This document shows, one piece after another, positions 18,797-42,617 of a stretch of DNA of 64,000 nucleotides. The stretch lies in the NCBI RefSeq assembly GCF_054482525.1, contig NZ_CM137006.1; one strand, 5' to 3'. How positions within the stretch are numbered: the stretch's first letter is position 1; each line of letters starts with the position of its first letter. A program made the translations under genes and the position numbers. Under the pieces are notes generated by a model that saw nothing but the letters and a program-made list of their open reading frames with translations, was not told the DNA's origin and ran no database searches.

Positions 18797-18962
18797 ATTT
18801 TCAGAAATGGGAGGCTGGGAGTCTATCGAAATGGTTCGTCGATATGCTCACCTCGCGCCTAATCACCTTACCGAACACGCACGGCAAATAGACTCAGTCC
18901 TGAACCCATCGGTCCCAAATTTGTCCCAGTCAAAAAAAAAGGAAGGTACTAATTATGTGTAA
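18797..18962 (+). pseudogene. C-terminal fragment of a tyrosine integrase
   Basis: [28 protein letters not shown] matches the conserved integrase C-terminus (catalytic Tyr in RYAHL); only about 55 codons remain. Confidence 0.6.
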
Positions 18963-18970
18963 CTTATTGA

Positions 18971-18992
18971 TTTAAATGGTGCGATAATAGGA
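18971..18992. repeat. Distal att-like direct repeat (degenerate copy of tRNA-Thr 3' end)
   Basis: tttaaatggtgcgataatagga matches tttgaaatggtgccgataatagga at 42535..42558 with two single-base gaps. Confidence 0.5.
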
Positions 18993-19170
18993 ATATAACA
19001 CACCACATATATTCTTTGATAAATATGACTATTTTCTTGTTTCATCTTTATAAATGCCCCCTTTTGTGCCCCCACCTTGTTTTTCATGCGACTCGATGAG
19101 ACTTTCATCGAGTCGTTAATCTCATCAAATTCTTCACGTATCGTGGAAACCTTCGCAGATCTCCATCCCC

Positions 19171-19539
19171 TCACAGCCGTGATCGGCTAAGAACAATATT
19201 ACTTACCTCCCTGTAAGAACACCGGCTCATCAGCCCGCACGCTTTCCTGGCTTGAAGAATGTCTGTCGCAGTCAAATATGGTGCTTGTACCTGAGAGGTA
19301 AATCCATTGCGATCAATACGAACTAACTCATATTTCTCTACCAGAAAGTTAACGGCATTAGCCAGAGTGATACCGGCATCGATATGCTCCTTTATAACGG
19401 TTTCATCGCTAAAAGGTGTGTCGCTTAGCATTAGGCCATAGTGCTGCTCAAGCAGACGAGTAAGTAACATTTGCCAGATTGCAACGGGCGACAGACAGGG
19501 CTTCGCCGCCCGCGAAATTGTAGCAGGTAGATTTTTCAT
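19171..19539 (-). CDS. cbtA: CbtA/YeeV/YkfI-family toxin (type IV TA)
   Basis: Start trimmed to [36 protein letters not shown], closely resembling remembered CbtA/YeeV; ATGA overlap with upstream antitoxin. Confidence 0.8.
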
Positions 19540-19877
19540 GTTTGCTCTCGTGAAATTTGTTTGCGCTGAGGGGGATAAATGGCGATGTATACGTAGCCGC
19601 AACTACCAAGGGTATCGGCTTCGCAGGTGAAACCGTTGTGGTACAGGGTGACACAGTGGGCATGGCGGGGATTCATTTCACCAGTGGTCAGCATCGATTC
19701 CATCTGACTGATAAAATGTGGAAATACGACATCCAACTTCAGGCTTTCGGCATCACTAAACTTACCGGTGATACTTGCCCGGTCAGCCAGATAGTGCAGC
19801 CGGTTGCCCTCCTGCACCAGACGTGCTCCCAGGCACGGCGTGATATCCCGCTGCAGGCCCCATGTGGGGTTGCTCAT
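19536..19877 (-). CDS. cbeA: CbeA/YeeU/YfjZ-family antitoxin
   Basis: 113 aa; [20 protein letters not shown]...[14 protein letters not shown] matches the YeeU family. Confidence 0.8.
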
Positions 19878-19894
19878 TTATAACCTCTTTATTG

Positions 19895-20116
19895 TCAGTT
19901 CAGGGTAATACTCACCAGACAGGTATAAGGTCCGTTGCGATCCTGGCGGCGTTCGACGTATACCGCCAGCACACTGGAAATGTCAGGAACCACCTTAACG
20001 GTGTATTGACAGACACTGCCATGCCACTGGTATCTGCCAGTGCAGAATCGAACAATGCGGGAGGCCGGATGCTGACGGTAAATCGTCATCGCCAGGCGTT
20101 TACTGATAATTTTCAT
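19895..20116 (-). CDS. DUF987 protein (YeeT/YkfH-like)
   Basis: MKIISKRLAMTIYRQHP...YQWHGSVCQYT resembles YeeT; conserved position upstream of cbeA. Confidence 0.65.
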   Translation of the reverse strand: MKIISKRLAMTIYRQHPASRIVRFCTGRYQWHGSVCQYTVKVVPDISSVLAVYVERRQDRNGPYTCLVSITLN

Positions 20117-20124
20117 GTAATACC

Positions 20125-20604
20125 TCAAAGCAGACCATGTTCAGCGAACGACAATATCTGCGTACCACCGACGATAAGGTGGTCGAGCACCCGGATCTCC
20201 ACCAGCATCAGTGCATGTAACAGTCGTTGAGTGATAGCCTTGTCGGCCTGGCTTGGAGTCACTTCTCCGGACGGGTGGTTATGGGCAAATATCACCGCCG
20301 CCGCATTAAAGTACAGCGCGCGTTTCACCACCTCGCGAGGATGAACCTCAGTGTGACTGATGGTGCCGGTAAAGAGCGTTTCGTGGGCAAGCAGCTGGTT
20401 CTGGTTATTGAGGTACAACACGACAAACACTTCGCGCTCAAGGGGGCCCATTTTCAGCCTGAGCCAGTCGCGGGCAGCCTGAGTCGAGGTGAATGCCACA
20501 CCCGGTTCTAGCAAGTGCTGGTCAAGCAGAACCAAGGCTCGCTTAATGGTACGCAGTGCTGGTAACGGCAGTTCAGGTGTAAACATAGTCAGTTGTTTCG
20601 CCAT
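20125..20604 (-). CDS. RadC-like JAB-domain protein (YeeS/YkfG-like)
   Basis: JAMM-like motif HNHPSGEVTPSQADKAIT; 159 aa. Confidence 0.75.
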   Translation of the reverse strand: MAKQLTMFTPELPLPALRTIKRALVLLDQHLLEPGVAFTSTQAARDWLRLKMGPLEREVFVVLYLNNQNQLLAHETLFTGTISHTEVHPREVVKRALYFNAAAVIFAHNHPSGEVTPSQADKAITQRLLHALMLVEIRVLDHLIVGGTQILSFAEHGLL

Positions 20605-20980
20605 AGCAAATATCCTTAATTAAAGGTGGTGAGAATGACACTGGATTCGGCACGACAGGCGTGATGGTCGTATTCGAGTAGGAAGATGGTAATATGATTG
20701 CGGAATGCATGAGGAAACGAAGCCAGCAATGACCCAGTGACTCACACCCAATCACAGTGTTAAAAATAAAAAAATCCCGCAATCCAGCGAGGATTGCATT
20801 GGGATAATATCTATCTGTAATTATTTAGAAAAAATGTTTTTTTTCTGAGGTCTATTATAAATTTTTTTCGTTCAGAAACTTCTCGGATATGATCATCTGC
20901 TGAGTACCAAGAACGGACATTGTACCCAATAGTGAGTTAATCATTGGAACGTTGATCACCCCAATTGAAAATTTTCACAA

Positions 20981-21003
20981 TATCCAATATCCAATATCCA
21001 ATA
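20981..21003. repeat. Short tandem repeat (tatccaa x3)
   Basis: tatccaatatccaatatccaatat read directly from sequence. Confidence 0.6.
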
Positions 21004-21032
21004 TATCGGTGTAGAGGGCTTCTCTCTTAAAC

Positions 21033-22230
21033 TGATCCTACCCGCGTAATGTGGACACGCTCCTAAGCGAGATTCTGGTTTTCAAACTGTTTCGGGCTGA
21101 GGCCGCCATAATCGCTGTGACGCCGCCAGCGATTGTAATCGCACTTAATCCGCCGTCCGCATGATTTCCCGGCTGATAAAGCGTTCTCCGTGGATACACT
21201 CGACTTTTAACGAGTGTAAGAAGCTTTCCGCACAGGCATTATCATAACAGCAACCTTTTGCGCTCATGCTGCCATGCAGATTATGTCGTTTCAGCAGAGC
21301 CTGATAATCCGCTGAGCAGTACTGCCCGCCACGGTCGGTGTGAATTCGCCGCCACAGCGCCATCTGCAGTGCATCACAGGCAAGTTCTGCCGTTATTTGC
21401 GAGGACACCAACTAGCCAATAATAGCACGCGACCACCAGTCTATAACCACGGCAAAGTATAACAAGCTTTCATCGATGCGAAGGTACGTGATGTCACCAG
21501 CCCACTTCTGGTCCGAGCCACTAGATCTGAAGTCCTGCTTCAGCAGATTCTCCGGCACTGGCTGGTCGTGAGCACAGTAGATTAACGGGCTGAACAGACG
21601 TGAGGTTTTTGCCCGCAGGCCCTGACGACGCGAACTGTTGCTATCGTTTTGATGTTGTATTCCGGCGGCTCGTCTGCAAGACGAGCCGCACCATAACGCT
21701 GTTTTGCCTCAACGAATACCTTACAGACAGCTTCATTGAAGACGCACCGGAACTGTTGCCGATGGCTCAGTTGGGGACGACGCAGACACCAGGTATACCA
21801 GCAGCTGTGCGCCACGCACAGCACCCGACACATAGCTTTGATACTGAACTCAACCTGATATTTTTCGATAAAGATATACTTCATTTCAGGCGCTACGCGA
21901 AGTATGTCGCGCCCTTTTGGAGAATAGCCAACTCATTATCCCGCTCAGCCAGTTGACGTTTGAGGCAGGCAATCTCCGCTGCTTGTGCGCTCTCTCTCAG
22001 AGGATATTGTCTGGTGCAGTTGTTTGTAGAGCTGGGAATCGTAAAGGCTGAGTTCACGGGCGGTAGTGGCCACACCGAGACGTTCGGCCAACTTAAGGGC
22101 TTCTTCACGAAATTCAGGCGTGTGTTGTTTGCGTGACTTTTGTTGATTGATGCTGATTTTGTCATGTGAGCTACCTCTGATTGAGAGTTTACTCGCTTAG
22201 TCCCGTGTCCACTATTGGTGGGTAGGATCA
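21033..22230 (-). mobile_element. Degraded IS3-family insertion sequence (frameshifted orfA, interrupted orfB)
   Basis: Terminal inverted repeats tgatcctaccc (21033) and gggtaggatca (22220); ORFs 21893..22231, 21582..21884 and 21145..21411 match InsE C-terminus ([23 protein letters not shown]) and InsF N- and C-terminal parts, but not as continuous frames. Confidence 0.75.
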
Positions 22231-22579: not shown

Positions 22580-24313
22580 ATGTACATAGCAAAAATTAAA
22601 TTTACAAATTTCAAATCATTCAAAGAGATGTCTTTTGAGTGCAATGATAAATTCAACATAATTGTTGGTGAAAATAATATTGGTAAAAGCACATTATTTG
22701 AGGGGGTAAGTTTATGGAAATATGCTTATGACAACCTTATTCAAGAAAAAAACAAAAACAAATTCTACAAAGCTTCAACTAACTACTACATTACCTATTC
22801 TACACTCGATCAAATAAGACTTGTTGACGATATTGATATTTTTAACGACCCAAAGAATAGCTCCGCATCAATATGCATTACAATTAAAGATGAACAAAAT
22901 GAATTTGATTTAGAGATTAGATTTGAAAAGCCAGGGATTAAAAATTCATACTTACGGATATTTAATAGCAATGGTTCTGATAATGACACACAGTTTTCAA
23001 ACTTTGAACGATTCTCAAACTATATAAAAGAAAAGGATTGCACTCTAAAAGATGCCATTTACATTTACCAAACAAGACCAATATCAACTATTTTTAGAGA
23101 TGAGCCATTTTACAATAATGCGCAGATAGAGAAAAAAATAAATATTGGAAAGTCACATGATGTCTTAAGGAATAAAATATTAAAAACCGAAAATACTCAA
23201 GCCACAAGGGTTGCACAAAAATTTGAAAATCTTGAGATTCGCCTACAAAAAGTCCTTGGTGAAAACTATATCTTAAAATTTAAGAATAGAAATCGAATCG
23301 ATGATGAGTATGTTAAAATAACTGCAACAAAGGAAAACGGGAAAGAATTGGAAATATCACTTATGGGTAGTGGTTTTTTGCAAGTCTTAGAGATATTTTC
23401 AACAATTGAGTATATGGAAAAGAATTCAACCGGTATTAACCTCATTCTTATCGATGAGCCTGATTCACATATCCACTCAAATTTACAAGCAAATTTAATT
23501 GACGAACTAAAGCAACAAACAGCATGTCAAATTTTTGTCATAACACATAATGACAGACTAACATCAAAAGCTAATGAAGGTGAGCTTTTTTATCTAAATC
23601 AGATAGTTAAGGATCTTGGTTTATTGTCTCACCTTGAAATATCTGATTATTCAAAAGTTAAAGATGGTCTAGCTAATGTACTAACAGCTATAAATGATGG
23701 AGATGAAACACCCATTGTTATAACTGAAGGAAAAACGGACCAGAAAATTTTAACAACTGCTTGGGAAAAGCTAAACCCAGGAACTCCTATGCCTTTTAAA
23801 ATAATTTCATCCGGCATTCAAATTGAAGAGGAAAAAAGAACTGGGTGCGCAGAGGCAGTTAGAAGATCTTTAGAATACATTTCAACATTAACTGATAGAA
23901 CAATTATCGGTTTATTTGATAATGATCGGGAGGGAAATGAGCAGTTCAAAGGATTAAATCGTTCTATTTTTGAACCTCATGACCTGCAAAATAACTCCCG
24001 AAAACATCAGATAAAAAATATCTATGGGCTTATTCTTCCCGTTCCTGTGCATAGAGAACGTTTTGTACAAAACAATTCTTTAACGCAGCGTTACTTCGTA
24101 ATTGAACAATATTTCCAAGATGAAATATTACTACAGCATAACATGAAAGGTGAGTCAATATTAGGTACTGAGGTATTTTTTGTTAATGACTCAAGAAAGA
24201 ATGAGTTTTCAGAGTCAACCAATGACCTTCCGGTAGAATGCTTTGGGGATTTTAGTATTTTATTCGATAAAATTTCCGATTTATTGGCTAACAATAGACC
24301 AGAAAACACTTGA
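22580..24313 (+). CDS. OLD-family ATP-dependent endonuclease (ABC-type ATPase + C-terminal TOPRIM)
   Basis: Walker A GENNIGKST, Walker B/H-loop LILIDEPDSHIH, TOPRIM glutamate IVITEGKTD and DxD motif FDNDREG; 577 aa; strongly AT-rich codon usage. Confidence 0.7.
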   Translation: MYIAKIKFTNFKSFKEMSFECNDKFNIIVGENNIGKSTLFEGVSLWKYAYDNLIQEKNKNKFYKASTNYYITYSTLDQIRLVDDIDIFNDPKNSSASICITIKDEQNEFDLEIRFEKPGIKNSYLRIFNSNGSDNDTQFSNFERFSNYIKEKDCTLKDAIYIYQTRPISTIFRDEPFYNNAQIEKKINIGKSHDVLRNKILKTENTQATRVAQKFENLEIRLQKVLGENYILKFKNRNRIDDEYVKITATKENGKELEISLMGSGFLQVLEIFSTIEYMEKNSTGINLILIDEPDSHIHSNLQANLIDELKQQTACQIFVITHNDRLTSKANEGELFYLNQIVKDLGLLSHLEISDYSKVKDGLANVLTAINDGDETPIVITEGKTDQKILTTAWEKLNPGTPMPFKIISSGIQIEEEKRTGCAEAVRRSLEYISTLTDRTIIGLFDNDREGNEQFKGLNRSIFEPHDLQNNSRKHQIKNIYGLILPVPVHRERFVQNNSLTQRYFVIEQYFQDEILLQHNMKGESILGTEVFFVNDSRKNEFSESTNDLPVECFGDFSILFDKISDLLANNRPENT

Positions 24314-33351: not shown

Positions 33352-33963
33352 ATGTTTGACAATATCTGTCTCGATAGACGGCATGCACCATTCAACACCA
33401 CTTACCTACAGCGTATTCTACGCGTTATAGATAACGCGACTGCAGAGCATGCACGGACGATGGCAGTTCGGGTAGACCTGCGTCTTCCTGACAATATGCT
33501 CATTAACCGACAGGGCCTGATATCTCGTTTCATTGAATCCCTTGATGCAAAGATTGCAGCGCGCTACAGAAGTAAGTTGAAGCAGGGTAAACGAACATAT
33601 CCATGCCACCTTCGCGATGCCTGGGTTCGGGAGGTGGGTGAGATTAATCAGAAATCGCATTACCACATGGTGTTGTTCGTGAATAACGATACATTCAATG
33701 GGCTGGGGAGTTACAAAGAAGATGGGACGGGCCTGGCGTCCTTGATACGAGAGGCCTGGCTGAGTGCTTTACAGCTTAGTCACCGCCCAGAGCACTGGAC
33801 GCTAGCCCACTATCCCGATAATCCACTTTATTTTCTGGATATTAATTCCGCTGGCTACAAAGAGTCTTATGACCAACTGACGTTTCGGTTAAGTTATTTT
33901 GCGAAGGAACGCACCAAAGATTACAACAGGGAGGAACGTTCATTCGGATGTAGCCAGGGCTGA
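33352..33963 (+). CDS. YagK/YfjJ-family (inovirus Gp2-like) protein
   Basis: Start trimmed to MFDNICLD; resembles CP4-57 YfjJ / CP4-6 YagK. Confidence 0.55.
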   Translation: MFDNICLDRRHAPFNTTYLQRILRVIDNATAEHARTMAVRVDLRLPDNMLINRQGLISRFIESLDAKIAARYRSKLKQGKRTYPCHLRDAWVREVGEINQKSHYHMVLFVNNDTFNGLGSYKEDGTGLASLIREAWLSALQLSHRPEHWTLAHYPDNPLYFLDINSAGYKESYDQLTFRLSYFAKERTKDYNREERSFGCSQG

Positions 33964-34753
33964 ATTCGGTACATCGTTTTGCTGGTGGCACTATATTTGC
34001 GCCACAACGCCATAGTGTGTCAACCACACCGCTATTCCCCTCACAATACCGTTAAACCATTCAACCACATGGCGTCAGTCTGCCCATCAAGGGCGGCTTA
34101 CACCTGCTTGCAGAAGTCGGATTATATTTGACGCCAACGACGGTAATAGTCGTTTGACGAGCGCCAGAACGGTACAGAAAGATATATAGTATCGTAGGCA
34201 GGCTTGATACCCCTGTTATCGTGCAGTCTTGGCACTGCGCTTGGTTCGGATACCATTACTAGGGCAAAAAGCACTGTGTGGTCTGTGGTATCGGGAAATA
34301 TAGCACGGAAGAATCAAACTGGCTGATGAATGACACCAGAGCGCCTGCGTGAGGTCCACCGTATTTCCTCCAACCAACACAGAGAAAAAATCATAATGAG
34401 CTACCACCAGTTAATCATCACAAATACAAAGTCGGCGGACAGTGCACGCATTCACCACGTATTACAGCAACCCGGATGGTTTCGAAATACAATTGGCAGC
34501 GTTGAAAGAGGTTGCATTGCAAATGGTTTTTTCAGTGATGACTGCCTGCAGTGACCTGTTTAAATGATCACTGTCACGTTATCTGGATTGCGCAGTTGCT
34601 TGGGTTGCAGTATGTCTCATCTTAGACTGTGTTGATGTTATTGTTGAGATCAGCACTCCGGCAGATGGCCAAATTCAGTAAACCACTTCAAAAGGCACAT
34701 TTATGCAACCTCATCAGCGGTGACCCGTAAAAATTGCAAATTAAGGAGCAATA

Positions 34754-36853
34754 ATGAACCGAGAGCAAGCCCAACAACTGCTGCAGACTGCTTTGGCTAA
34801 CCCTGCTGCTGAATTTCGTGATGGTCAGTGGGAAGCCATTGATGCATTGGTTAATCGTCGTCAGAAACTACTGGTTGTACAGCGTACCGGCTGGGGTAAG
34901 AGCTCGGTTTATTTTATTAGTACTAAAATCTTCCGTGACCGCGAGATGGGGCCTACGATTATTGTATCGCCACTGCTTGCATTAATGCGTAACCAGATTG
35001 ATTCAGCGCAGCGTTTGGGAATAGTTGCCGAAACAATGAATTCGGCTAATAGGGAGGATTGGCAGGCTGTAACTCAACGAATTCTCAATAACCAAATAGA
35101 CTGTTTGCTCATTTCCCCAGAGCGGCTAGCAAATGATACCTTTATTGAGACGGTCCTTCAGCCCATTGCCGATCGAATCGCCCTAATGGTAATTGACGAA
35201 GCACACTGTATTTCAGATTGGGGTCATGATTTTCGTCCTGATTATCGCCGTATCGTAAATATCCTTCGTCAATTGCCCGCCAACACCCCAGTACTAGGTA
35301 CGACTGCAACTGCCAATAACCGAGTTGTTGACGATATCCAAGCCCAGCTTGGGGATATACAAATCCACCGAGGTCCTCTTACTCGCGAAAGCCTCGCTCT
35401 GCATACAATGTCTTTACCCGATCAGGCATCTCGTTTAGCTTGGCTCGCCCAAGTTATTCCGATGCTACATGGAACAGGCATTATTTACGCATTAACAGTT
35501 CGTGATGCCGAGCAGGTGGCAGAATGGTTGAGCATGCACGGTATAGTTGCCATGGCATACCACGGTAGCATCGAGGCTGAAGGTTTTGAGAACAGCAATG
35601 CTTACCGTCAGTACTTAGAAGAATTGTTACTTAACAACCAGCTTAAGGTTTTAGTAGCAACGACCGCGTTGGGTATGGGTTATGATAAACCTGATTTAAG
35701 TTTTGTAATCCATTACCAAGCTCCGAGTTCAATTGTTGCATACTACCAGCAGGTGGGTCGGGCTGGGCGCGGTATTGCTCATGCAACAGGTGTACTGATG
35801 TCGGGGATAGAAGATAACGACATCCATGATTTTTTCCGTGATTCTGCATTTCCATCGGAGGATCAAGTTAACGATATTCTTCGAGTGTTGGAAAATAATG
35901 ATGGTCTATCACTCCGCAACATCGAGGAAAAAACTAACCTACGCCACGGCCAGATTGAGAAAGTACTTAAGTTACTGAGTGTAGAAAATCCAGCCCCCAT
36001 CATTAAAAATGAAAATCGTTGGGTTAGGACCACAGTTCGCTATCAAATGGATCATGCCCGAATTGCTCATTTGACAGGACAACGTATTCAGGAATGGGAA
36101 GAGGTTCAAGCGTACCTTACCGACACTGGATGCAAAATGGCATTTCTACGTCGTTCTCTGGACGATCTCGACCCAACTCCATGTGGTAAATGCTCGTCCT
36201 GTATTGGTCAACCAATTATAAATCAAATCATTGACCCTGCTTTGGTACATCGTGCAGGGACTTTCCTAAAACATGCAGAAATGCCGATTACTCCAAAAGC
36301 TCAGGTAGCAGCTAATGCTTTTTTGCAATATGGCTTCAGCGGCAATTTGCCACAGCAGATTAGAGCACAAGAAGGTCGAGTGTTGTCTCGCTGGGGAGAT
36401 GCTGGTTGGGGACGGTTAGTAGCCGATAATAAACGTGCAGATCACTTTGATGATGAGCTAGTGGTTGCTATGGCCGAGATGATTCAGCAGCGTTGGCAAC
36501 CGAATCCAGCGCCACAATGGGTATGCTGTGTACCTTCACGCAATCATGTACAATTAGTCCCTGATTTCGCTCGCCGCTTGGCGGCATGTTTGAGGTTGCC
36601 TTTTTTCAATGCCATCAGCAAGGTTAGAGATAACCAACCTCAAAAGGGGCAACAAAACCGTTTCCATCAATGCCGCAATCTGGACGGTGCTTTTGAGATA
36701 AATCAACCTCTACCTAACACACCGGTTCTACTTGTAGATGACATTGTAGATTCAGGCTGGACGTTAACTGTCATCGCAGCACTCCTACAACGCGCAGGTA
36801 GTGGTAAAGTATACCCTGTTGCACTTGCTTCATCTTCGGTAAAAGACTCATGA
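34754..36853 (+). CDS. RecQ-family helicase fused to a C-terminal phosphoribosyltransferase-like domain (PsyrT-like)
   Basis: Helicase motifs GWGKS (I), DEAH (II), TATA (III), QQVGRAGR (VI); C-terminal type-I PRTase motif VLLVDDIVDSGWTLT. Confidence 0.8.
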   Translation: MNREQAQQLLQTALANPAAEFRDGQWEAIDALVNRRQKLLVVQRTGWGKSSVYFISTKIFRDREMGPTIIVSPLLALMRNQIDSAQRLGIVAETMNSANREDWQAVTQRILNNQIDCLLISPERLANDTFIETVLQPIADRIALMVIDEAHCISDWGHDFRPDYRRIVNILRQLPANTPVLGTTATANNRVVDDIQAQLGDIQIHRGPLTRESLALHTMSLPDQASRLAWLAQVIPMLHGTGIIYALTVRDAEQVAEWLSMHGIVAMAYHGSIEAEGFENSNAYRQYLEELLLNNQLKVLVATTALGMGYDKPDLSFVIHYQAPSSIVAYYQQVGRAGRGIAHATGVLMSGIEDNDIHDFFRDSAFPSEDQVNDILRVLENNDGLSLRNIEEKTNLRHGQIEKVLKLLSVENPAPIIKNENRWVRTTVRYQMDHARIAHLTGQRIQEWEEVQAYLTDTGCKMAFLRRSLDDLDPTPCGKCSSCIGQPIINQIIDPALVHRAGTFLKHAEMPITPKAQVAANAFLQYGFSGNLPQQIRAQEGRVLSRWGDAGWGRLVADNKRADHFDDELVVAMAEMIQQRWQPNPAPQWVCCVPSRNHVQLVPDFARRLAACLRLPFFNAISKVRDNQPQKGQQNRFHQCRNLDGAFEINQPLPNTPVLLVDDIVDSGWTLTVIAALLQRAGSGKVYPVALASSSVKDS

Positions 36854-38175
36854 ATGTATCTAACTTATTGTCAAAAACAGCCCAGGCGACCTTACTTCTG
36901 ACTAGTTATTTTTCTAAAGCAACTAGCGAAAACGCCAAACCACTTTCCAACGCCGAATGGGGACGTTTTGCGCTATGGTTGAAAGAAAAAGCAGTTACGC
37001 CAGCTGACTTGTTGGACTCTGATCCTCAAACCTTACTGAATGGCTGGTACGACTCCCGTATCAGTACGGATCGGATCATTGAGTTGATGAATCGAGGACA
37101 TAGCCTCGCTTTGGCTATGGAGAAATGGCAACGGGCAGGCTTGTGGGTAGTGACACGTTCTGATCCAGAATATCCATGGAGATTAAAACATCGGCTTAAA
37201 ACAGACTCTCCCCCTGTTTTATTTGGCTGTGGCAATAAAGCCTTATTAAATAGAGGGGGATTGGCTGTCATTGGTTCTCGAAATGCCAATGCATCAGACC
37301 TTACTTTTACTGATCACATCGGCGTTAAAGCTGCGGACGAAAATATAGCTGTTGTATCTGGTGCTGCACGTGGAGTAGACGAAACAGCCATGTTAGGTGC
37401 AATGAGGCAAGGTGGAGTTGTAATCGGGATTTTGGCAGATAGCCTGTTAAAAGCTGCGACTAGTGCCAAATGGCGCAAGGGGCTTATGAATGACCATGTT
37501 GTGCTAATATCCCCTTTTTACCCTGAGGCTGGTTTCTATGCGGGAAATGCCATGGCTCGCAATAAATATATCTATTGCTTGTCGGATAGTGCATTGGTTA
37601 TTCATTCTGGTCGAAAAGGTGGAACAATTAGTGGGGCAGAGGAAAATCTTAAGAAAGGATGGGTGCCACTATGGGTCAATCCAACAACCGATCTAGATTC
37701 AGCTAATGCTGACTTAGTGAGCAAAGGGGGACATTGGTTGCCAAGTGATAGTAATGGCCTATCCATCGAGAATTTGCTTAAAAATAATGACAGATCAAAA
37801 ATGCAGTTAAAAGCAGAGCCCCAAGATCTTTTTTCAGAATTGTCGCATCCAGAATTAATTATTGGATCTGCAGAGAAATCGTCAACTCAAGCTCTCGAAA
37901 AAGATTGGACTGCTACTATTAATGAAGAAACTCCCAACCTAATAACTACGGAAAAAAAATTAGAGGAAAAAGAGTTAGATGTAAATCCTATAGACTTTTA
38001 TCTGCTATTCAGGACAGAATTACAGCGATTGGCCGAACATCCAATTACAGTAGATAGGTTGACAGAAGTCACTGGGTTGAATAAATCGCAAGTGCTTGAT
38101 TGGTTGAAACGTGCTGAACAAGATGGTTTGGTAAAAAAACTAAACCGTCCTACAAGATATCAATTAAATGAGTAG
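36850..38175 (+). CDS. DprA/Smf-like Rossmann-fold protein with C-terminal winged helix (PsyrA/ShosA-like)
   Basis: DprA core LAVIGSRNA...VVSGAARGVDETAMLGA...GGTI; ATGA start/stop overlap with the upstream helicase gene. Confidence 0.75.
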   Translation: MNVSNLLSKTAQATLLLTSYFSKATSENAKPLSNAEWGRFALWLKEKAVTPADLLDSDPQTLLNGWYDSRISTDRIIELMNRGHSLALAMEKWQRAGLWVVTRSDPEYPWRLKHRLKTDSPPVLFGCGNKALLNRGGLAVIGSRNANASDLTFTDHIGVKAADENIAVVSGAARGVDETAMLGAMRQGGVVIGILADSLLKAATSAKWRKGLMNDHVVLISPFYPEAGFYAGNAMARNKYIYCLSDSALVIHSGRKGGTISGAEENLKKGWVPLWVNPTTDLDSANADLVSKGGHWLPSDSNGLSIENLLKNNDRSKMQLKAEPQDLFSELSHPELIIGSAEKSSTQALEKDWTATINEETPNLITTEKKLEEKELDVNPIDFYLLFRTELQRLAEHPITVDRLTEVTGLNKSQVLDWLKRAEQDGLVKKLNRPTRYQLNE

Positions 38176-38356
38176 TAACAGGCTTTAATGAAGCAACTAT
38201 AACCGGTTTGGCCTTAATGATTTTTAGTTAAGCTTGGGCATATAAAAGTTTAGAATTGATATAATGGTATTCAATTACATTAGTGTTGAGCTAATGTAAT
38301 TGATCCTGATTTAAATATCATCTATCAGAATTGAACAATTTTACATAGTTTATACT

Positions 38357-39346
38357 TTATGTCTTTCTTTCAAGTGCAACTCCTAGATCCGCTGCCATTT
38401 TTTGGATTAGCCTCCAATCTAGCGGCCATTCTTTTTCTAAAGTAGATCTCCGTCTTTTGATTAACCAGTAAACGAAAATAACAACGCTTTGTTCAAAGAA
38501 ACTACTCCCTTCTTTGCCATCCTGAATTAGTAGTTCGAGCTCAGGAGTCTCTTCTATAAATTGATGTAATCTTTCTATCGTATCGGGTTTGATCACTTCT
38601 TTAAATGTATCTAGAATTAATAAAGTCGATTTTTGATTGTTTGGTTTATTCTTTGTTAAAGCTATGTAGATATTATCTAAAGTTCGCTGAATTCCTGCGT
38701 AACCATCAGATGCTGCGTTAATTGCTTTCGATACTGAACAGAAAAAATCATCCGTAGTTTCTATTAACGCCATGCTTTTTGCTACAGTTCTATGTATATC
38801 TGGTTCAACTATAGTTTTTGCTTTATATATGGCATCATGAGTTAACTCGGCATAGGCATGTTGTAATAAAGATCTAACCTGTATCTCACATGGAATGCCT
38901 TGTTCAATGATAACTCCATTATAATCAAAGGATTCTTTTGCAGTTACTATAAAATGTACGGATTGATACGTGAAAATTAATGGTGTATTTAATCTTTCTT
39001 CTTCGTAGTGTCTTGATGTCTTATAATGCCATTTATTACTACTTTTTATTATTTCACATATTTCATCTATATCTGAAGTAAGTAAAACGACAAACCTGAT
39101 GCCAACTTTATCTTCAATCTCTTGGTAGGGGTTTTTGTATGATTTTTCTTTTCGATGAAAAGCTTTATCGATTAGAGATGTCTTTTCTTTTATTCTCGGT
39201 GTCGCAGGTTGCTTGAGAAAGCTATTGAGGTCCCGCTCTTTATTTTCTGAGAGTTCTTTGCAAATATTTGAGACGACAAAATCTCCCCATGCTTTATACA
39301 TGGGTAGTTCTTTTTCCCAAAGTTGCGAAAACTCTAATTCATTCAT
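38357..39346 (-). CDS. RelA/SpoT-fold nucleotidyltransferase (toxSAS-like)
   Basis: Synthetase-domain signature PRIKEKTSLIDKAFHRKE, GIRFVV, YQSVHFIV and CEIQVRSLLQHAYAELTHDAIYK (EIQIRT..QHxWAE..H..YK); AT-rich. Confidence 0.7.
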   Translation of the reverse strand: MNELEFSQLWEKELPMYKAWGDFVVSNICKELSENKERDLNSFLKQPATPRIKEKTSLIDKAFHRKEKSYKNPYQEIEDKVGIRFVVLLTSDIDEICEIIKSSNKWHYKTSRHYEEERLNTPLIFTYQSVHFIVTAKESFDYNGVIIEQGIPCEIQVRSLLQHAYAELTHDAIYKAKTIVEPDIHRTVAKSMALIETTDDFFCSVSKAINAASDGYAGIQRTLDNIYIALTKNKPNNQKSTLLILDTFKEVIKPDTIERLHQFIEETPELELLIQDGKEGSSFFEQSVVIFVYWLIKRRRSTLEKEWPLDWRLIQKMAADLGVALERKT

Positions 39347-39354
39347 TAATTAGC

Positions 39355-40446
39355 TCATTCCTGAAGGGTTATCTTGTCCTTGATGAGGATTGTTGTCCAC
39401 TCAGCAGGTTTACCATCTTTATCGAGTTCACCTATAGTAGATTCAATTACAATATGGCTTTTAAAAACTTCCGCAGGGGCTGTGATTTTTATATTTTTAC
39501 TAAAGTTAAGCTTTCTTGTTTTTAATTTGCTTTCAATATGCTCGTTGTCTCTTGTGAAAGAGGTTTGTGGTATACCAGATTCATGAGCATACTCAAGATA
39601 AAGATCCTTAATACTATCATCAAAAAATCTTTCAGCATAATCTTTAGCTGAAATTACATCCGATTTTTCATGTTTAAGATATGTAACTAATGCATTTTTA
39701 AGCACATTTTTCTTTTCCTCGCTGACATCCAATTCATTAAGAAATTCACTCGTTTTTTCATAGAAATTCTTTGTTGTGCGGGCACTTGTTTCTGGGTAAC
39801 CGCAACCTAAAAAATTTTGATAAAAATATTGTGCTGCAGCTTTACCATCCGACTTACTGATTTGATAGTCAGAAATCATCACATCCCAAGATTTATTAAG
39901 ATCAGTATTATCAAGAGAATTGGTTGATTGGAAAAAACCGGCAGTTTTATAAAGTTTTGTGGATGGTGTAAGTAATATTTCTTCAACGAATTTTAATGAT
40001 ATTTGGCCCGTTTTATCGTCGATTACTTTTTCATATGCACTATAAATATCAGCCTTGATAATTCCAATGAATTTTCTTTTATTTACACCATAGTCGCCAG
40101 AAAAGATTACTACAATTCCGCCTGGAATTGCTCGTCTTGTCTGCGCATCTGCCAGTTTATTAGCTATTGTGTAAGTCTCATCAATATAATCCTCTCCCTC
40201 TTTATCAATTAAAGTTGTAGCAATATAAGGAACATAATCTTTTCCATGCTCCTTTATTTGCATTTTTACGGCTTTAGAACCATCACCTAAAGCGTCGATT
40301 ACTCGTGATTTAAAACCTTGCAAGGCATCAGCATCAAATTTTATAAATGAAGAACCTCTTGTTGGTTCTATTTTGTTTCCTTCTTCGTCGCGCTGATGAA
40401 TTTGGTGGATAATTATTTTGTTAATATTCATTTTGCTGATATTCAT
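39355..40446 (-). CDS. NA37-family nucleoid-associated protein homolog (YejK/NdpA-like)
   Basis: Similarity along the whole length to remembered YejK: N-terminus INKIIIHQIHQRDE vs INQIALHQLIKRDE, and central and C-terminal blocks; AT-rich. Confidence 0.65.
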   Translation of the reverse strand: MNISKMNINKIIIHQIHQRDEEGNKIEPTRGSSFIKFDADALQGFKSRVIDALGDGSKAVKMQIKEHGKDYVPYIATTLIDKEGEDYIDETYTIANKLADAQTRRAIPGGIVVIFSGDYGVNKRKFIGIIKADIYSAYEKVIDDKTGQISLKFVEEILLTPSTKLYKTAGFFQSTNSLDNTDLNKSWDVMISDYQISKSDGKAAAQYFYQNFLGCGYPETSARTTKNFYEKTSEFLNELDVSEEKKNVLKNALVTYLKHEKSDVISAKDYAERFFDDSIKDLYLEYAHESGIPQTSFTRDNEHIESKLKTRKLNFSKNIKITAPAEVFKSHIVIESTIGELDKDGKPAEWTTILIKDKITLQE

Positions 40447-40463
40447 TTCTGTGTAGTTCCATC

Positions 40464-40931
40464 TTATTGATTATCTGATTTTATATTTTTGCTTTCAATA
40501 TATTCTTTGTGAATATTATTCCATTCTTGACTGTCTTTTTCCCAAATAGATTTATATTCATCAAAAAGACTATCAATATCTGACTGGGTTACATCTTCTT
40601 TGGATTTTAAGTAATTAACTTTGTTTCTAAGTTGATACATGGCTAGCAAAGTAGCTTTTTGCCTAAACCATAATTTTTGATAATCAAATCTTGCAGTCCA
40701 CCCACTAACTAGAGTAAGACAGGCACTCACAATAAGAGCAGAATTTTTCTGTATTTTTTCATATCCAGATAAATCGAAGGCTAATATCAGTGTAGTAATA
40801 GTGCTCAAAAATATAGTCATGAAAAAAAATATTTTTAATTTTTTTTTATTCCATTTCGCCTTGCACTTTATTATGTTGATACTTTTATGGATTTCATCCA
40901 GTAAAAACTGTTGAGAAGATGTTATAGACAA
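40464..40931 (-). CDS. Small 2-TM membrane protein, SLATT-like
   Basis: Two hydrophobic helices (FFFMTIFLSTITTLILAF, ALIVSACLTLVSGW) followed by a charged helical tail; first gene of the three-gene operon. Confidence 0.5.
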   Translation of the reverse strand: MSITSSQQFLLDEIHKSINIIKCKAKWNKKKLKIFFFMTIFLSTITTLILAFDLSGYEKIQKNSALIVSACLTLVSGWTARFDYQKLWFRQKATLLAMYQLRNKVNYLKSKEDVTQSDIDSLFDEYKSIWEKDSQEWNNIHKEYIESKNIKSDNQ

Positions 40932-41175: not shown

Positions 41176-42378
41176 TTACACTACCGCATGTAAGATTCTA
41201 CGTACAGAGTGTAGATCAATCAAATAGTCTGAATACCACTGCATCATCTCTCTTCGCCCCTCCAGATATTGCGCATGGTTGTACGTCCCACGAATCGCAT
41301 TCTTATCGACATGCGCAAGCTGGGTTTCAATCCATGCCGTGTTGAACCCTTCCTCGTGCAAAATCGTACTCATCGTGTGACGGAAACTATGCCCCGTTAC
41401 CTTCCCCGTATACCCAATCCGTTTGAATACCTGATTAATACTCGCTTCACTCATCGTTTTACGTGGATCATTGCGCCCTGGGAACACCAAAGGATATTGC
41501 CCGGACATTACTTTGAGCTGTTGTACGATTTCTAGCGCTTGGGTAGAGAGGGGTACAAGATGGGGCCGTTTCATCTTCATACGCTCTGCAGGTATTTCCC
41601 ACACCGCTTTCTCAAGATCAAACTCACTCCAGAAAGCACCTCGAAGCTCGCCAGTACGAACTCCCGTAAGGATAAGCAGACGAGCGGCAAGAACAACTAA
41701 CGGGCTTCCTGTATAACCTGCGAGAGCTTTAAAGAAGTCTGGTAACTCCTCTACTGACAGGAAGGGATAATGCTTCGATTCATGCCCTGACATCGCGCTG
41801 GTTAGGTCCGCTGCAGGATTGTATTCCGCGCGACCTGTAACGATGGCATAACGAAAGACTTCGCTGCAGCGCTGGCGAACCTTCTTGGCCTTCTCTGTCG
41901 CGCCACGGCTTTCGATTCGACGCAGCACATTAAGCAGAACCAGCGGTTTGATTTCATTCACTGGCAGTTGGCCGATATAGGGGAAAATATCTTTATTGAA
42001 GGCTTCGATAATATCGGAGGCATAGCCTTCTGACCACCGGCTCACCTTAGTACCGTGCCACTCAAGCGCCACAGACTGGAACGTGTTGTTGAGCTGCACA
42101 TCGCGAACCAGCTTTTCTTCTTTCTTTGCGAAAGACGGGTCGATACCCTCGGCCAGCTTTTTCTTGGCTTCATCACGCAGAGCCCTCGCTTGTGCAAGGG
42201 AAACAGCCGGATAGACCCCAAAAGCCATACGCTTCTCTTTTCCATTGAAGCGATATTTCATTCGCCAGTATCGAGAACCAGAGGGAACGACTTCAAGATA
42301 CAAGCCAGCACCATCTGCCAGCTTATAGGCTTTCTCTTTGGGTTTAGCAGCGTCTACCTGTCGCGCATTAAGCTTCAT
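41176..42378 (-). CDS. P4-type tyrosine integrase
   Basis: Start trimmed to MKLNARQV; catalytic motifs GVRTGELRG, HSFRHT, LAHVD..RGTYNH; immediately adjacent to the tRNA-Thr 3' end. Confidence 0.85.
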   Translation of the reverse strand: MKLNARQVDAAKPKEKAYKLADGAGLYLEVVPSGSRYWRMKYRFNGKEKRMAFGVYPAVSLAQARALRDEAKKKLAEGIDPSFAKKEEKLVRDVQLNNTFQSVALEWHGTKVSRWSEGYASDIIEAFNKDIFPYIGQLPVNEIKPLVLLNVLRRIESRGATEKAKKVRQRCSEVFRYAIVTGRAEYNPAADLTSAMSGHESKHYPFLSVEELPDFFKALAGYTGSPLVVLAARLLILTGVRTGELRGAFWSEFDLEKAVWEIPAERMKMKRPHLVPLSTQALEIVQQLKVMSGQYPLVFPGRNDPRKTMSEASINQVFKRIGYTGKVTGHSFRHTMSTILHEEGFNTAWIETQLAHVDKNAIRGTYNHAQYLEGRREMMQWYSDYLIDLHSVRRILHAVV

Positions 42379-42534
42379 TGGGGGCATCTCCCTGGACCGA
42401 ACACAGAATGCCCCCACTTATGCCCCCAACTGCGACTTGATTTCGGTTGAGTCCAGTTGATAACAGGAGATAAGATACGGGCCAGAAACCGCAGTATACG
42501 GGCTTTTAGTTGATTTCGGTAGACTTGGGAAGAG

Positions 42535-42558
42535 TTTGAAATGGTGCCGATAATAGGA
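42535..42558. repeat. Proximal att-like repeat overlapping the tRNA-Thr 3' end
   Basis: tttgaaatggtgccgataatagga; partner at 18971..18992. Confidence 0.5.
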
Positions 42559-42617
42559 GTCGAACCTACGACCTTCGCATTACGAATGCGCTGCTCTACC
42601 AACTGAGCTATATCGGC
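42542..42617 (-). tRNA. thrW: tRNA-Thr (anticodon CGU)
   Basis: Reverse complement reads GCCGATATAGCTCAGTTGGTAGAGCAGCGCATTCGTAATGCG...TTCGACTCC...CACCA: cloverleaf arms, CGT anticodon in the loop, encoded CCA. Confidence 0.85.

What the first reader, a model, noticed from the sequence alone, without database searches (positions are those of the whole stretch)
34754..38175. RecQ-helicase-PRTase fusion translationally coupled to a DprA-like gene (PsyrTA/ShosTA-like module)
The 699-aa protein combines a complete RecQ-type helicase core (GWGKS, DEAH, QQVGRAGR) with a C-terminal type-I phosphoribosyltransferase motif (VLLVDDIVDSGWTLT). Its stop overlaps the start of a 441-aa DprA/Smf-fold protein that ends in a winged helix. 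This architecture matches the toxin-antitoxin pairs reported as PsyrTA and ShosTA, later linked to phage defence; here it is island cargo.
Basis: partly seen in the sequence, partly recalled or inferred. Interest (0 to 1): 0.7.

Follow-up and report, generated by a model that had tools for sequence, protein, structure and literature searches.

The report
Known PsyrTA (RqlHI) toxin-antitoxin defence pair

Summary
ORFs 34754-36853 (699 aa) and 36850-38175 (441 aa) overlap by ATGA. All quoted motifs are present.

PADLOC profiles match both proteins over their full length: PsyrT 1045 bits and PsyrA 563 bits.

The pair is a homologue (64% and 48% aa identity) of E. coli RqlH/RqlI. In that system, RqlH alone is genotoxic through its PRTase domain (D663, conserved here), and RqlI binds and neutralises it. 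PsyrTA has also been reported as an anti-phage system.

The window is E. coli SCU-102. The pair lies in an island at tRNA-Thr (thrW), beside an NA37/RelA-SpoT/SLATT operon that resembles the recently described type I PANGU defence.

This allele occurs in 1 of 5426 complete E. coli genomes. It is 90-99% identical in Klebsiella and Yersinia. In other bacteria, 67-73% relatives sit inside or beside type I restriction operons.

Verdict: a correctly identified, already known system. The phage trigger and the PRTase substrate remain unknown for the whole family.

The parts
34685..34753 (+). Short conserved leader of the cassette, with the Shine-Dalgarno AAGGAG at 34743-34748, 5 nt before the psyrT ATG
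   Evidence: Sequence read. In an alignment of six loci from different genomic contexts, similarity begins only about 70 bp upstream of the ATG, and AAGGAG is invariant. The consensus scan found no promoter in this stretch.
34754..36853 (+). psyrT / rqlH: 699-aa toxin made of a RecQ-like SF2 helicase fused to a C-terminal phosphoribosyltransferase domain
   Evidence: ORF. PADLOC PsyrT 1045 bits over the full length. 64% identity without gaps to CFT073 RqlH. RefSeq WP_001078521.1.
34811..35818 (+). Helicase core (aa 20-355): motif I GWGKS (K49), motif II DEAH (D148), motif VI QQVGRAGR
   Evidence: Pfam DEAD 4e-23 and Helicase_C 4e-13. PDB sequence hits to RecQ cores, 6e-52. K49, E149, H151, Q332 and G338 are invariant, and D148, R336 and R339 are at least 90% conserved, in 51 diverse homologues.
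36131..36202 (+). Tetracysteine RecQ-type zinc-binding cluster (C460, C477, C480, C483)
   Evidence: Pfam RecQ_Zn_bind is weak (E 0.045, aa 442-483). All four cysteines are at least 90% conserved in 51 homologues.
36209..36850 (+). ComF-like PRTase domain (aa 486-699) with the PRPP-loop VLLVDDIVDSGWTLT (D662, D663)
36850..36853 (+). ATGA start/stop overlap (translational coupling)
   Evidence: The same TCATGAATG junction is present in 7 related loci. CFT073 has a 1-nt TGATG overlap instead.
36850..38175 (+). psyrA / rqlI: 441-aa DprA-like antitoxin
   Evidence: ORF. PADLOC PsyrA 563 bits over the full length. 48% identity to CFT073 RqlI and 68% to a plasmid copy. RefSeq WP_001103161.1.
37126..37728 (+). 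DprA / SLOG Rossmann-like core of PsyrA (aa 93-293). The conserved helical N-terminal domain (aa 1-92) precedes it.
   Evidence: Pfam DNA_processg_A 1.2e-39 and LDcluster4 (SLOG) 1e-8. PDB sequence hits to DprA 3uqz (1e-11) and ShosA 9vzo (3e-10). Dense invariant columns in 26 homologues.
37729..37983 (+). Hypervariable, acidic, predicted-disordered linker of PsyrA (aa 294-378)
   Evidence: pLDDT 21-48. Only 11-36% identity in loci where the flanking domains are 58-86% identical. Variable in the alignment.
37984..38172 (+). C-terminal winged-helix domain of PsyrA (aa 379-441)
   Evidence: Model pLDDT 71-80 with H383-394, H401-408, H412-424, E428-431, E436-439. Weak Pfam HTH_29/MarR_2/DprA_WH hits. 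Conserved block in the alignment. The equivalent HTH region is dispensable for antitoxin activity in RqlI (PMC4670107).
38357..40931 (-). Context, not part of PsyrTA: convergent three-gene operon SLATT (40464-40931), NA37 nucleoid-associated protein (39355-40446) and RelA/SpoT-like synthetase (38357-39346). It is a type I PANGU-like neighbour defence system.
   Evidence: Pfam hits. NCBIfam SLATT_1 86.9 bits, above the cut-off of 41. Architecture described in bioRxiv 10.64898/2026.04.06.716658. It travels with psyrTA in Klebsiella and Yersinia but not in other contexts.
41176..42617 (-). Context: island tyrosine integrase (41176-42378) and its target tRNA-Thr(CGU) thrW (42542-42617)
   Evidence: Annotation. 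ARAGORN. The same integrase (93-95% nt identity) sits at thrW in 214 E. coli genomes with different cargo.

Best explanation
This is an intact two-gene PsyrTA (= RqlHI) toxin-antitoxin-type module. It is carried as horizontally acquired cargo in the variable slot next to the integrase of a thrW (tRNA-Thr) island of E. coli SCU-102.

Shown here:
- Both genes are full-length family members.
- Every catalytic motif that was mutated in the published E. coli work is present (helicase K49 and D148, PRTase D663 within DIVD).
- The genes are translationally coupled.
- The pair moves as a self-contained cassette between defence-type contexts.

Taken from published work on a 64%/48% identical E. coli homologue (PMC4670107):
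- PsyrT/RqlH expressed alone induces SOS, filamentation, mutagenesis and loss of viability.
- This toxicity needs the PRPP-binding loop of the PRTase domain together with the rest of the protein.
- Helicase-dead mutants remained harmful, with loss of viable cells that RqlI did not rescue.
- PsyrA/RqlI binds RqlH and neutralises it through its N-terminal and DprA-like regions. The C-terminal HTH is dispensable.

Inferred: in uninfected cells the PsyrT-PsyrA complex is inert. Phage infection removes the restraint. This could happen through abundant phage ssDNA or replication intermediates that engage the helicase and the DprA-like ssDNA binder, or through loss of a labile antitoxin after host shut-off. 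The ComF-like PRTase domain then damages or blocks DNA replication, which aborts the infection. The acceptor substrate of the PRTase and the phage trigger are unknown for the whole family.
For: Family identity:
- PADLOC PsyrT 1045 bits and PsyrA 563 bits, both full length.
- Pfam domains.
- 64% gap-free identity to CFT073 RqlH and 48% to RqlI.
- Motif positions and their conservation in 51 homologues of 35-74% identity.

Coupling and cassette behaviour:
- ATGA overlap here and in 7 related loci.
- Conservation between contexts starts only about 70 bp upstream of the ATG.

Defence-type contexts:
- Nested between hsdS and hsdR of type I R-M on an E. coli IncF plasmid and in Aeromonas.
- Directly upstream of a type I R-M operon in Yersinia.
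- In the region between integrase and backbone genes of related islands in Enterobacter.
- Beside a PANGU-like operon here and in Klebsiella and Yersinia.

Foreign origin:
- GC 46% and 42%, against 54% for neighbouring proA.
- This allele is in 1 of 5426 complete E. coli genomes.

Literature:
- Toxicity, rescue, interaction and D663 (PMC4670107).
- PsyrTA reported as phage-defensive, with a psyrA deletion that could not be transformed (bioRxiv 10.1101/2022.05.11.491447).
Against: Nothing was tested on this allele. It is only 64%/48% identical to the characterised E. coli pair, so toxicity and neutralisation are extrapolated.

Defence is not universal. An E. coli PsyrTA deleted in its native strain NILS69 and expressed in K-12 gave no detectable protection against the phages tried, and it caused a growth defect (bioRxiv 10.1101/2024.12.20.629700).

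Many bacteria, nearly all of them Gram-positive, have RqlH without RqlI. That fits poorly with an obligate toxin.

No promoter or terminator was found by the consensus scans. The trigger step is pure inference.
Confidence: 0.8

Rival explanations
1. The pair is a pure addiction (post-segregational killing) module. It stabilises the thrW island or plasmids and gives no protection against phages.
For: It behaves like a toxin-antitoxin pair (PMC4670107). It sits on mobile elements, including a conjugative IncF plasmid. A native E. coli PsyrTA gave no measurable phage protection in one systematic study.
Against: It is repeatedly nested inside or placed beside type I restriction operons, and it occupies cargo slots where other genomes carry defence systems. 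PsyrTA is reported as protective in heterologous assays. The common E. coli copy sits between gntU and yhgN with no mobile element to stabilise.
Confidence: 0.12
2. The pair is a cooperative DNA-transaction machine rather than a toxin and an antidote. Helicase, ComF-like PRTase and DprA-like protein together would process ssDNA (repair, recombination, or handling of incoming foreign DNA), and toxicity would appear only when the partnership is unbalanced.
For: All three modules have counterparts in the natural-transformation ssDNA pathway: ComFA helicase, ComFC PRTase and DprA. The PRTase model is closest to ComF. Weak NCBIfam matches to the ComF family and its E. coli member GntX. This is the model the RqlHI authors proposed, and it was also noted in PMC5512222.
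Against: Deletion of rqlHI produced no fitness phenotype, and no transformation was detected. The patchy, mobile distribution and the restriction-operon nesting are typical of conflict systems, not of housekeeping repair.
Confidence: 0.06
3. psyrTA and the convergent SLATT/NA37/RelA-SpoT operon form one five-gene composite system. For example, the SLOG-like PsyrA would sense an alarmone made by the RelA/SpoT enzyme, with SLATT as the membrane effector.
For: The five genes are kept together at 90-99% protein identity in E. coli, Klebsiella quasipneumoniae and Yersinia enterocolitica, in Yersinia at a different chromosomal site. SLATT domains are named for their association with SLOG domains, and PsyrA has a SLOG-type match.
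Against: The three occurrences belong to one island lineage with the same integrase, so they are not independent. psyrTA relatives of 67-73% identity occur without the trio in five other contexts. NA37 plus a toxSAS, with or without SLATT, is described as a self-sufficient system. The two units are convergently transcribed.
Confidence: 0.03
4. These are ordinary housekeeping RecQ and DprA genes, or a DpdF helicase of a 7-deazaguanine DNA-modification (Dpd) cluster.
For: RefSeq names them 'RecQ family ATP-dependent DNA helicase' and 'DNA-processing protein DprA'. Several PADLOC DpdF models hit the helicase, up to 299 bits.
Against: All three equivalog scores fall below their cut-offs: recQ 274 against 640, dprA 87 against 191, and DpdF 138 against 550. 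The protein has a PRTase domain in place of the RecQ C-terminal region. No other dpd genes are nearby. The locus lies in a strain-specific island.
Confidence: 0.01

Closest known systems
RqlH/RqlI of extraintestinal pathogenic E. coli F11/CFT073 (Russell & Mulvey 2015, PMC4670107). This is the PsyrTA family of Sberro 2013 and Millman 2022, represented by PADLOC models PDLC03928 and PDLC03927.
   Same: Same two-gene order with a start/stop overlap. Same domain architecture in both proteins. PsyrT aligns end to end without gaps (64% identity), with K49, D148 and DIVD663 at identical positions. PsyrA is 48% identical, with the same N-terminal, DprA, linker and HTH layout. Both PADLOC profiles match over their full length.
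   Different: It is a different allele clade. About 31% of complete E. coli genomes (1677 of 5426) match the query at only 60-80% nt identity; the sampled matches, including CFT073, are RecQ-family helicase plus DprA pairs at 63-66%. In CFT073 the pair sits between the core genes gntU and yhgN. This copy is unique to one strain, lies in a thrW island, and has its nearest relatives in Klebsiella and Yersinia. The overlap is ATGA rather than TGATG. The linker in PsyrA is about 40 residues longer.
ShosTA (ShosT PRTase toxin with ShosA DprA-like antitoxin; PMC11961720, PMC12961424)
   Same: A PRTase-containing toxin whose toxicity needs PRPP binding, leading to DNA-replication stress and filamentation. 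A DprA-like antitoxin encoded downstream. Reported as phage-defensive. The ShosA profile matches the DprA core here at 3.6e-25. The ShosT profile weakly matches the PRTase core at 4e-6.
ComFA/ComFC/DprA ssDNA-handling proteins of natural transformation (H. pylori ComF, PDB 7p0h)
   Same: The same three kinds of module: an SF2 helicase, a ComF-type PRTase and a DprA fold. ComF is the best structural match of the PRTase domain. Weak NCBIfam matches to the ComF family and its E. coli member GntX.
   Different: Here the helicase is RecQ-type and fused to the PRTase. The locus is mobile and is not linked to any uptake machinery. The DprA-like protein scores below the DprA equivalog cut-off. No role in transformation was found for RqlHI.
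Mycobacterium smegmatis RqlH (Ordonez, Unciuleac & Shuman 2012, as cited in PMC4670107 and PMC5512222)
   Same: The same RecQ-like helicase with a tetracysteine cluster and a PRTase domain. Per, the 2012 paper (read only through these two citing papers) characterised it biochemically as an ATPase and duplex-unwinding helicase whose PRTase domain is dispensable for both activities, and its title states 3'-5' translocase activity.
   Different: The mycobacterial gene stands alone, without a DprA-like partner, as in nearly all Gram-positive bacteria.

Membership tests
PsyrTA / RqlHI | Toxin matches the family profile over its whole length | tested here: met
   PADLOC PDLC03928 PsyrT: E = 0, 1045 bits, residues 2-698 against model positions 2-688 of 689.
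PsyrTA / RqlHI | N-terminal RecQ-like SF2 helicase with intact motifs I, II and VI, plus a tetracysteine zinc cluster | tested here: met
   GWGKS 46-50, DEAH 148-151, QQVGRAGR 332-339, and C460/C477/C480/C483. Pfam DEAD and Helicase_C. NCBIfam recQ_fam subfamily 245.7 bits, above the cut-off of 219.8.
PsyrTA / RqlHI | C-terminal PRTase domain with the acidic PRPP-binding loop (the DIVD663 of RqlH) | tested here: met
PsyrTA / RqlHI | DprA-like antitoxin encoded immediately downstream that matches the PsyrA profile | tested here: met
   PDLC03927 PsyrA: 7e-170, 563 bits, residues 2-440 against 2-397 of 398. Pfam DNA_processg_A 1.2e-39.
PsyrTA / RqlHI | Operon order toxin then antitoxin, with abutting or overlapping genes | tested here: met
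   ATGA overlap at 36850-36853. The same junction is present in 7 related loci.
PsyrTA / RqlHI | Toxin alone is toxic (SOS, filamentation), and toxicity depends on the PRTase loop | not testable with these tools
   Shown for F11 RqlH, which is 64% identical (PMC4670107). Testing this allele needs expression in vivo.
PsyrTA / RqlHI | Antitoxin binds and neutralises the toxin | not testable with these tools
   Co-immunoprecipitation and rescue were shown for RqlH/RqlI (PMC4670107).
PsyrTA / RqlHI | Protects against phage | not testable with these tools
   Reported for a PsyrTA operon in Millman et al.. No protection was seen for another E. coli copy. Genomic context here is typical of defence loci.
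ShosTA | ShosT architecture: N-terminal pyrophosphatase-like domain, non-canonical PRTase, and no helicase | tested here: not met
ShosTA | ShosA-type DprA-like antitoxin | tested here: inconclusive
   ShosA profiles match only the DprA core (aa 88-270): 86.9 and 40.3 bits, against 563 bits for PsyrA. ShosA chain 9vzo matches at 2.8e-10, similar to true DprA. The fold is shared, but the family is different.
Housekeeping RecQ | Reaches the recQ equivalog score and has the RecQ C-terminal/HRDC region | tested here: not met
   TIGR01389 274 bits against a cut-off of 640.2. NF008279 215 bits against a cut-off of 1015. The match stops at about aa 370. A PRTase domain replaces the C-terminal region.
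Competence protein DprA/Smf | Reaches the dprA equivalog score | tested here: not met
   TIGR00732 87.2 bits against a cut-off of 191.15. NF008007 65.7 bits against a cut-off of 495.
DpdF (Dpd 7-deazaguanine DNA-modification system) | Reaches the DpdF equivalog score and sits in a dpd gene cluster | tested here: not met
   NF041063 137.7 bits against a cut-off of 550. The PADLOC DpdF hits are partial. No dpd neighbours.

The most novel reading that the evidence does not exclude
The ComF-like PRTase domain of PsyrT may act on DNA rather than on free bases. In this reading the RecQ-like motor exposes ssDNA, and the PRTase uses PRPP to modify or covalently engage nucleobases in it. The DprA-like, SLOG-fold PsyrA would shield the ssDNA or reverse the lesion. 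That would make PsyrTA a DNA-directed phosphoribosylation defence. This is essentially the unproven model of Russell & Mulvey. My only addition is that the domain is structurally nearest to the ssDNA-handling ComF and not to ShosT or the salvage enzymes.
Probability: 0.2. Interest if true: 0.6.

Novelty: already known. Interest (0 to 1): 0.15.

Why it matters
It matters mainly as a check on annotation. RefSeq calls these genes 'RecQ family helicase' and 'DprA', which hides a toxin-antitoxin/defence module that current defence-system profiles recognise at once.

The locus adds one well-preserved, divergent allele with all catalytic residues intact. It also shows a neat natural arrangement: PsyrTA back to back with a PANGU-like NA37/alarmone-synthetase/SLATT operon, in the variable cargo slot of a thrW island that is shared between Escherichia, Klebsiella and Yersinia.

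It does not open a new question. The family-wide open questions remain: which molecule the PRTase modifies, and what phage signal releases it. This allele would be as good a model as any for studying them.

Tried and rejected
- Island ends. I searched for a second copy of the tRNA-Thr 3' end (27-mer, up to 3 mismatches) and for direct repeats across 16500-42700. No attL-type repeat was found. The distal end of the island is eroded, with an integrase fragment, IS remnants and truncated ykgR in the annotation, so I give no exact left boundary.
- Expression signals. The sigma-70 and terminator consensus scans over 33900-38500 found fewer sites than shuffled controls, none in the 200 bp before psyrT and none after psyrA. 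The promoter is therefore unassigned.
- Full-length PsyrA model. Mean pLDDT was only 53, from a shallow alignment of sequences mostly 66-90% identical to PsyrA (one at 52%). I did not use it for a fold search, and I took from it only the confident C-terminal and N-terminal segments.
- Sequence search of the PRTase region against the PDB. It gave only marginal PRPP-synthetase and HGPRT hits (E 0.011 or weaker) and no ShosT or ComF. The relationship became visible only by fold comparison.
- Phage genomes. There is no full-length PsyrT in 50,697 phage records, only RecQ-core matches, so I dropped a prophage-cargo reading.
- DpdF, ordinary RecQ and ordinary DprA were considered and rejected on curated score cut-offs.
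- A five-gene composite with the neighbouring operon was considered and judged unlikely, because psyrTA occurs without that operon in five independent contexts.


Full report
**What is in the sequence**

The stop of the first overlaps the start of the second in the tetranucleotide ATGA.

A strong Shine-Dalgarno sequence (AAGGAG, 34743-34748) lies 5 nt before the first ATG. There is no comparable site before the second gene. That fits translation of the second gene by coupling to the first.

The quoted motifs are at GWGKS 46-50, DEAH 148-151, QQVGRAGR 332-339 and VLLVDDIVDSGWTLT 658-672. A RecQ-type cysteine cluster lies at C460/C477/C480/C483.

**Domains**

- *First protein.* Pfam gives DEAD (4e-23), Helicase_C (4e-13) and Pribosyltran (2e-5, aa 599-686).
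- *Second protein.* Pfam gives DNA_processg_A (1.2e-39, aa 93-293) and a SLOG-type match. The helix-turn-helix matches at aa 393-438 are weak.
- *Second-protein model.* The full-length model is poor (pLDDT 53). Its C-terminal 60 residues are moderately confident (71-80) and have winged-helix topology. Residues 311-381 are predicted to be disordered.

**Family assignment**

PADLOC profiles match both proteins end to end: PsyrT at E = 0 and 1045 bits, PsyrA at 7e-170 and 563 bits. ShosA profiles match only the DprA core at 87 bits. On the PRTase domain alone, PsyrT scores 259.7 bits and ShosT 24.9.

Curated NCBIfam cut-offs rule out ordinary RecQ (274 against 640), ordinary DprA (87 against 191) and DpdF (138 against 550).

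PsyrTA is the same system as RqlHI. Against RqlH and RqlI of uropathogenic E. coli CFT073, the window proteins are 64% (no gaps) and 48% identical. K49, D148 and the DIVD663 loop sit at identical positions.

In an alignment of 51 homologues of 35-74% identity, the helicase motifs, the four cysteines and the PRTase DD/SxWT motif are invariant or at least 90% conserved, and all are present here.

The family is large. The 150 best 50%-identity clusters are nearly all full-length helicase-PRTase proteins, and some are fused to long N-terminal extensions.

**What is already known (literature)**

Russell & Mulvey 2015 (PMC4670107) reported the following for RqlH and RqlI:
- RqlH without RqlI induces SOS, filamentation, mutagenesis and loss of viability.
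- Toxicity needs the PRTase domain and specifically D663, but the PRTase domain alone is not toxic.
- Helicase-dead K49A and D148A proteins remain harmful, and RqlI only partly rescues them.
- RqlI co-immunoprecipitates with RqlH.
- The N-terminal and DprA-like parts of RqlI are needed for neutralisation, and its HTH is dispensable.
- In Gram-negative bacteria the two genes are nearly always paired with rqlH upstream.

Millman et al. list PsyrTA among newly validated anti-phage systems and could not obtain a psyrA deletion.

A study of native E. coli defences found no protection from one PsyrTA and found a growth cost.

The resemblance to the ComFA/ComFC/DprA competence proteins has already been noted.

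For ShosTA, structures and mechanism are published. ShosT is a pyrophosphatase-PRTase that binds PRPP and disturbs purine metabolism. ShosA is a DprA-like dimer that acts through ssDNA and RecA without binding ShosT.

**Genomic context**

The window is 100% identical to the chromosome of E. coli SCU-102, a human commensal. The pair lies in an island inserted at tRNA-Thr(CGU) thrW next to proA, which carries:
- a tyrosine integrase at 41176-42378;
- CP4-type backbone genes (YagK/YfjJ-like, AlpA-like, DUF932, RadC, CbeA/CbtA);
- IS debris.

GC content is 46% for psyrT and 42% for psyrA, against 54% for proA.

At megablast level this allele is in 1 of 5426 complete E. coli genomes. A further 1677 genomes match at only 60-80% nt identity; the sampled hits, including CFT073, are RecQ-family helicase plus DprA pairs at 63-66%. 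In CFT073 that copy sits between gntU and yhgN.

The same integrase occupies thrW in 214 genomes with other cargo. SE11, for example, carries an ABC-three-component/DUF3732 system there. The integrase-proximal region is therefore a variable cargo slot.

**Related loci elsewhere**

- PsyrA relatives of 99% identity (Klebsiella quasipneumoniae, same proA/thrW site) and 90% identity (Yersinia enterocolitica, different site, same integrase) carry the same block: psyrT-psyrA convergent with RelA_SpoT-NA37-SLATT.
- Relatives of 67-73% identity occur without that trio:
  - between hsdS and hsdR of type I restriction operons on an E. coli IncF plasmid and in Aeromonas;
  - directly upstream of a type I operon in Yersinia;
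  - in another island with different integrase-proximal cargo in Enterobacter;
  - alone next to ssb in Providencia.
- The 4-nt overlap is kept in all of these loci, and the toxin is 699 aa in each except the IncF plasmid copy, which is 710 aa.
- Similarity between contexts begins only about 70 bp upstream of the ATG. The two genes therefore move as a compact, autonomous cassette.
- PsyrT is more conserved than PsyrA in the same loci (79-86% against 68-73%). The PsyrA linker is hypervariable at 25-36%.
- No full-length PsyrT is found in 50,697 phage records.

**How it most likely works**

*Shown here:* an intact, coupled toxin-antitoxin gene pair with every experimentally important residue conserved, carried in defence-type mobile contexts.

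*Taken from the homologue:* the PRTase domain is the genotoxic effector, and both the helicase domain and direct binding by the DprA-like partner restrain it.

*Inferred:* infection relieves the restraint. This could happen through phage ssDNA or replication intermediates acting on the helicase and the DprA-like binder, or through decay of the antitoxin after host shut-off. The resulting replication stress then aborts the infection.

The PRTase acceptor and the trigger are unknown. The structural proximity to ComF leaves open the possibility that the domain engages ssDNA directly.

I put the family identity at about 0.97 and the defence-by-abortive-toxicity mechanism at about 0.6. The stated confidence of 0.8 refers to the combined statement that this is a functional PsyrTA/RqlHI toxin-antitoxin-type module.

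**Rivals**

- A pure addiction module remains possible (0.12).
- A cooperative DNA-processing role is less likely (0.06).
- A five-gene composite with the neighbouring operon is unlikely (0.03).
- Housekeeping RecQ/DprA or DpdF are excluded by curated cut-offs.

**Verdict**

The system is already known, it was characterised in E. coli itself, and standard defence-system profiles recognise it. Interest is therefore low (0.15).

The most notable by-product is the neighbouring SLATT/NA37/RelA-SpoT operon. Its architecture matches the type I PANGU defence described in an April 2026 preprint.

Noticed in passing
window 38357-40931 (- strand): A three-gene operon: SLATT membrane protein (40464-40931), NA37/YejK-like nucleoid-associated protein (39355-40446) and a RelA/SpoT-type small alarmone synthetase-like protein (38357-39346). 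GC is 32.7%. The architecture matches 'type I PANGU' (a NAP sensor with a GRel toxSAS effector, and SLATT in some operons) from bioRxiv 10.64898/2026.04.06.716658. PADLOC 2023 gives only a weak candidate hit (PDC-S33). At 85% nt identity or more it is unique to SCU-102 among 5426 E. coli genomes. It is conserved next to psyrTA in Klebsiella and Yersinia.
   Followed up: partly
window 22580-24313 (+ strand): A solitary 577-aa OLD-family ATP-dependent nuclease. It gives partial matches to PADLOC NsnB, GajA, AriA/AriAB, PtuA and AbiL models (best 1.8e-22). It has no partner gene, is flanked by IS3/transposase remnants, and lies in a 34-37% GC patch. It may be a single-gene OLD-type defence nuclease.
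   Followed up: partly
window 41176-42617; loci L015 and L016: The thrW integrase (93-95% nt identity) is shared by 214 complete E. coli genomes, but the adjacent cargo differs. SE11 carries an ABC-three-component/DUF3732 system, and SMS-3-5 carries other genes. The integrase-proximal slot of this island family therefore behaves as a variable defence hotspot.
   Followed up: partly
window about 18800-22200: The distal end of the island is eroded. It holds an integrase fragment (18803-18961), a CbtA/CbeA(YeeU) type IV toxin-antitoxin pair (19171-19877), DUF987, RadC and a frameshifted IS3 transposase. No att-type repeat of the tRNA-Thr 3' end was found.
   Followed up: partly
proteins P0261, P0274, P0280, P0282, P0285: Some helicase-PRTase homologues (41-45% identity over the full PsyrT length) sit at the C-terminus of much longer proteins, 926-2597 aa. 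They carry large N-terminal extensions of unknown content and may be polyvalent-protein-like fusions.
   Followed up: no
PADLOC models PDLC02866 and PDLC02869: Two short PADLOC models named DpdF (255 and 74 positions) match the PRTase domain of PsyrT strongly (58 and 116 bits). They appear to be built from RqlH-like fragments and could cause mislabelling of PsyrT-type proteins as DpdF.
   Followed up: no
L002 13938-15233 (E. coli CFT073): The RefSeq start of CFT073 rqlI is annotated 94 nt inside rqlH, giving 431 aa. Alignment with this clade and the published 400-aa length point instead to the ATG that overlaps the rqlH stop by one base (TGATG at L002 14031).
   Followed up: partly
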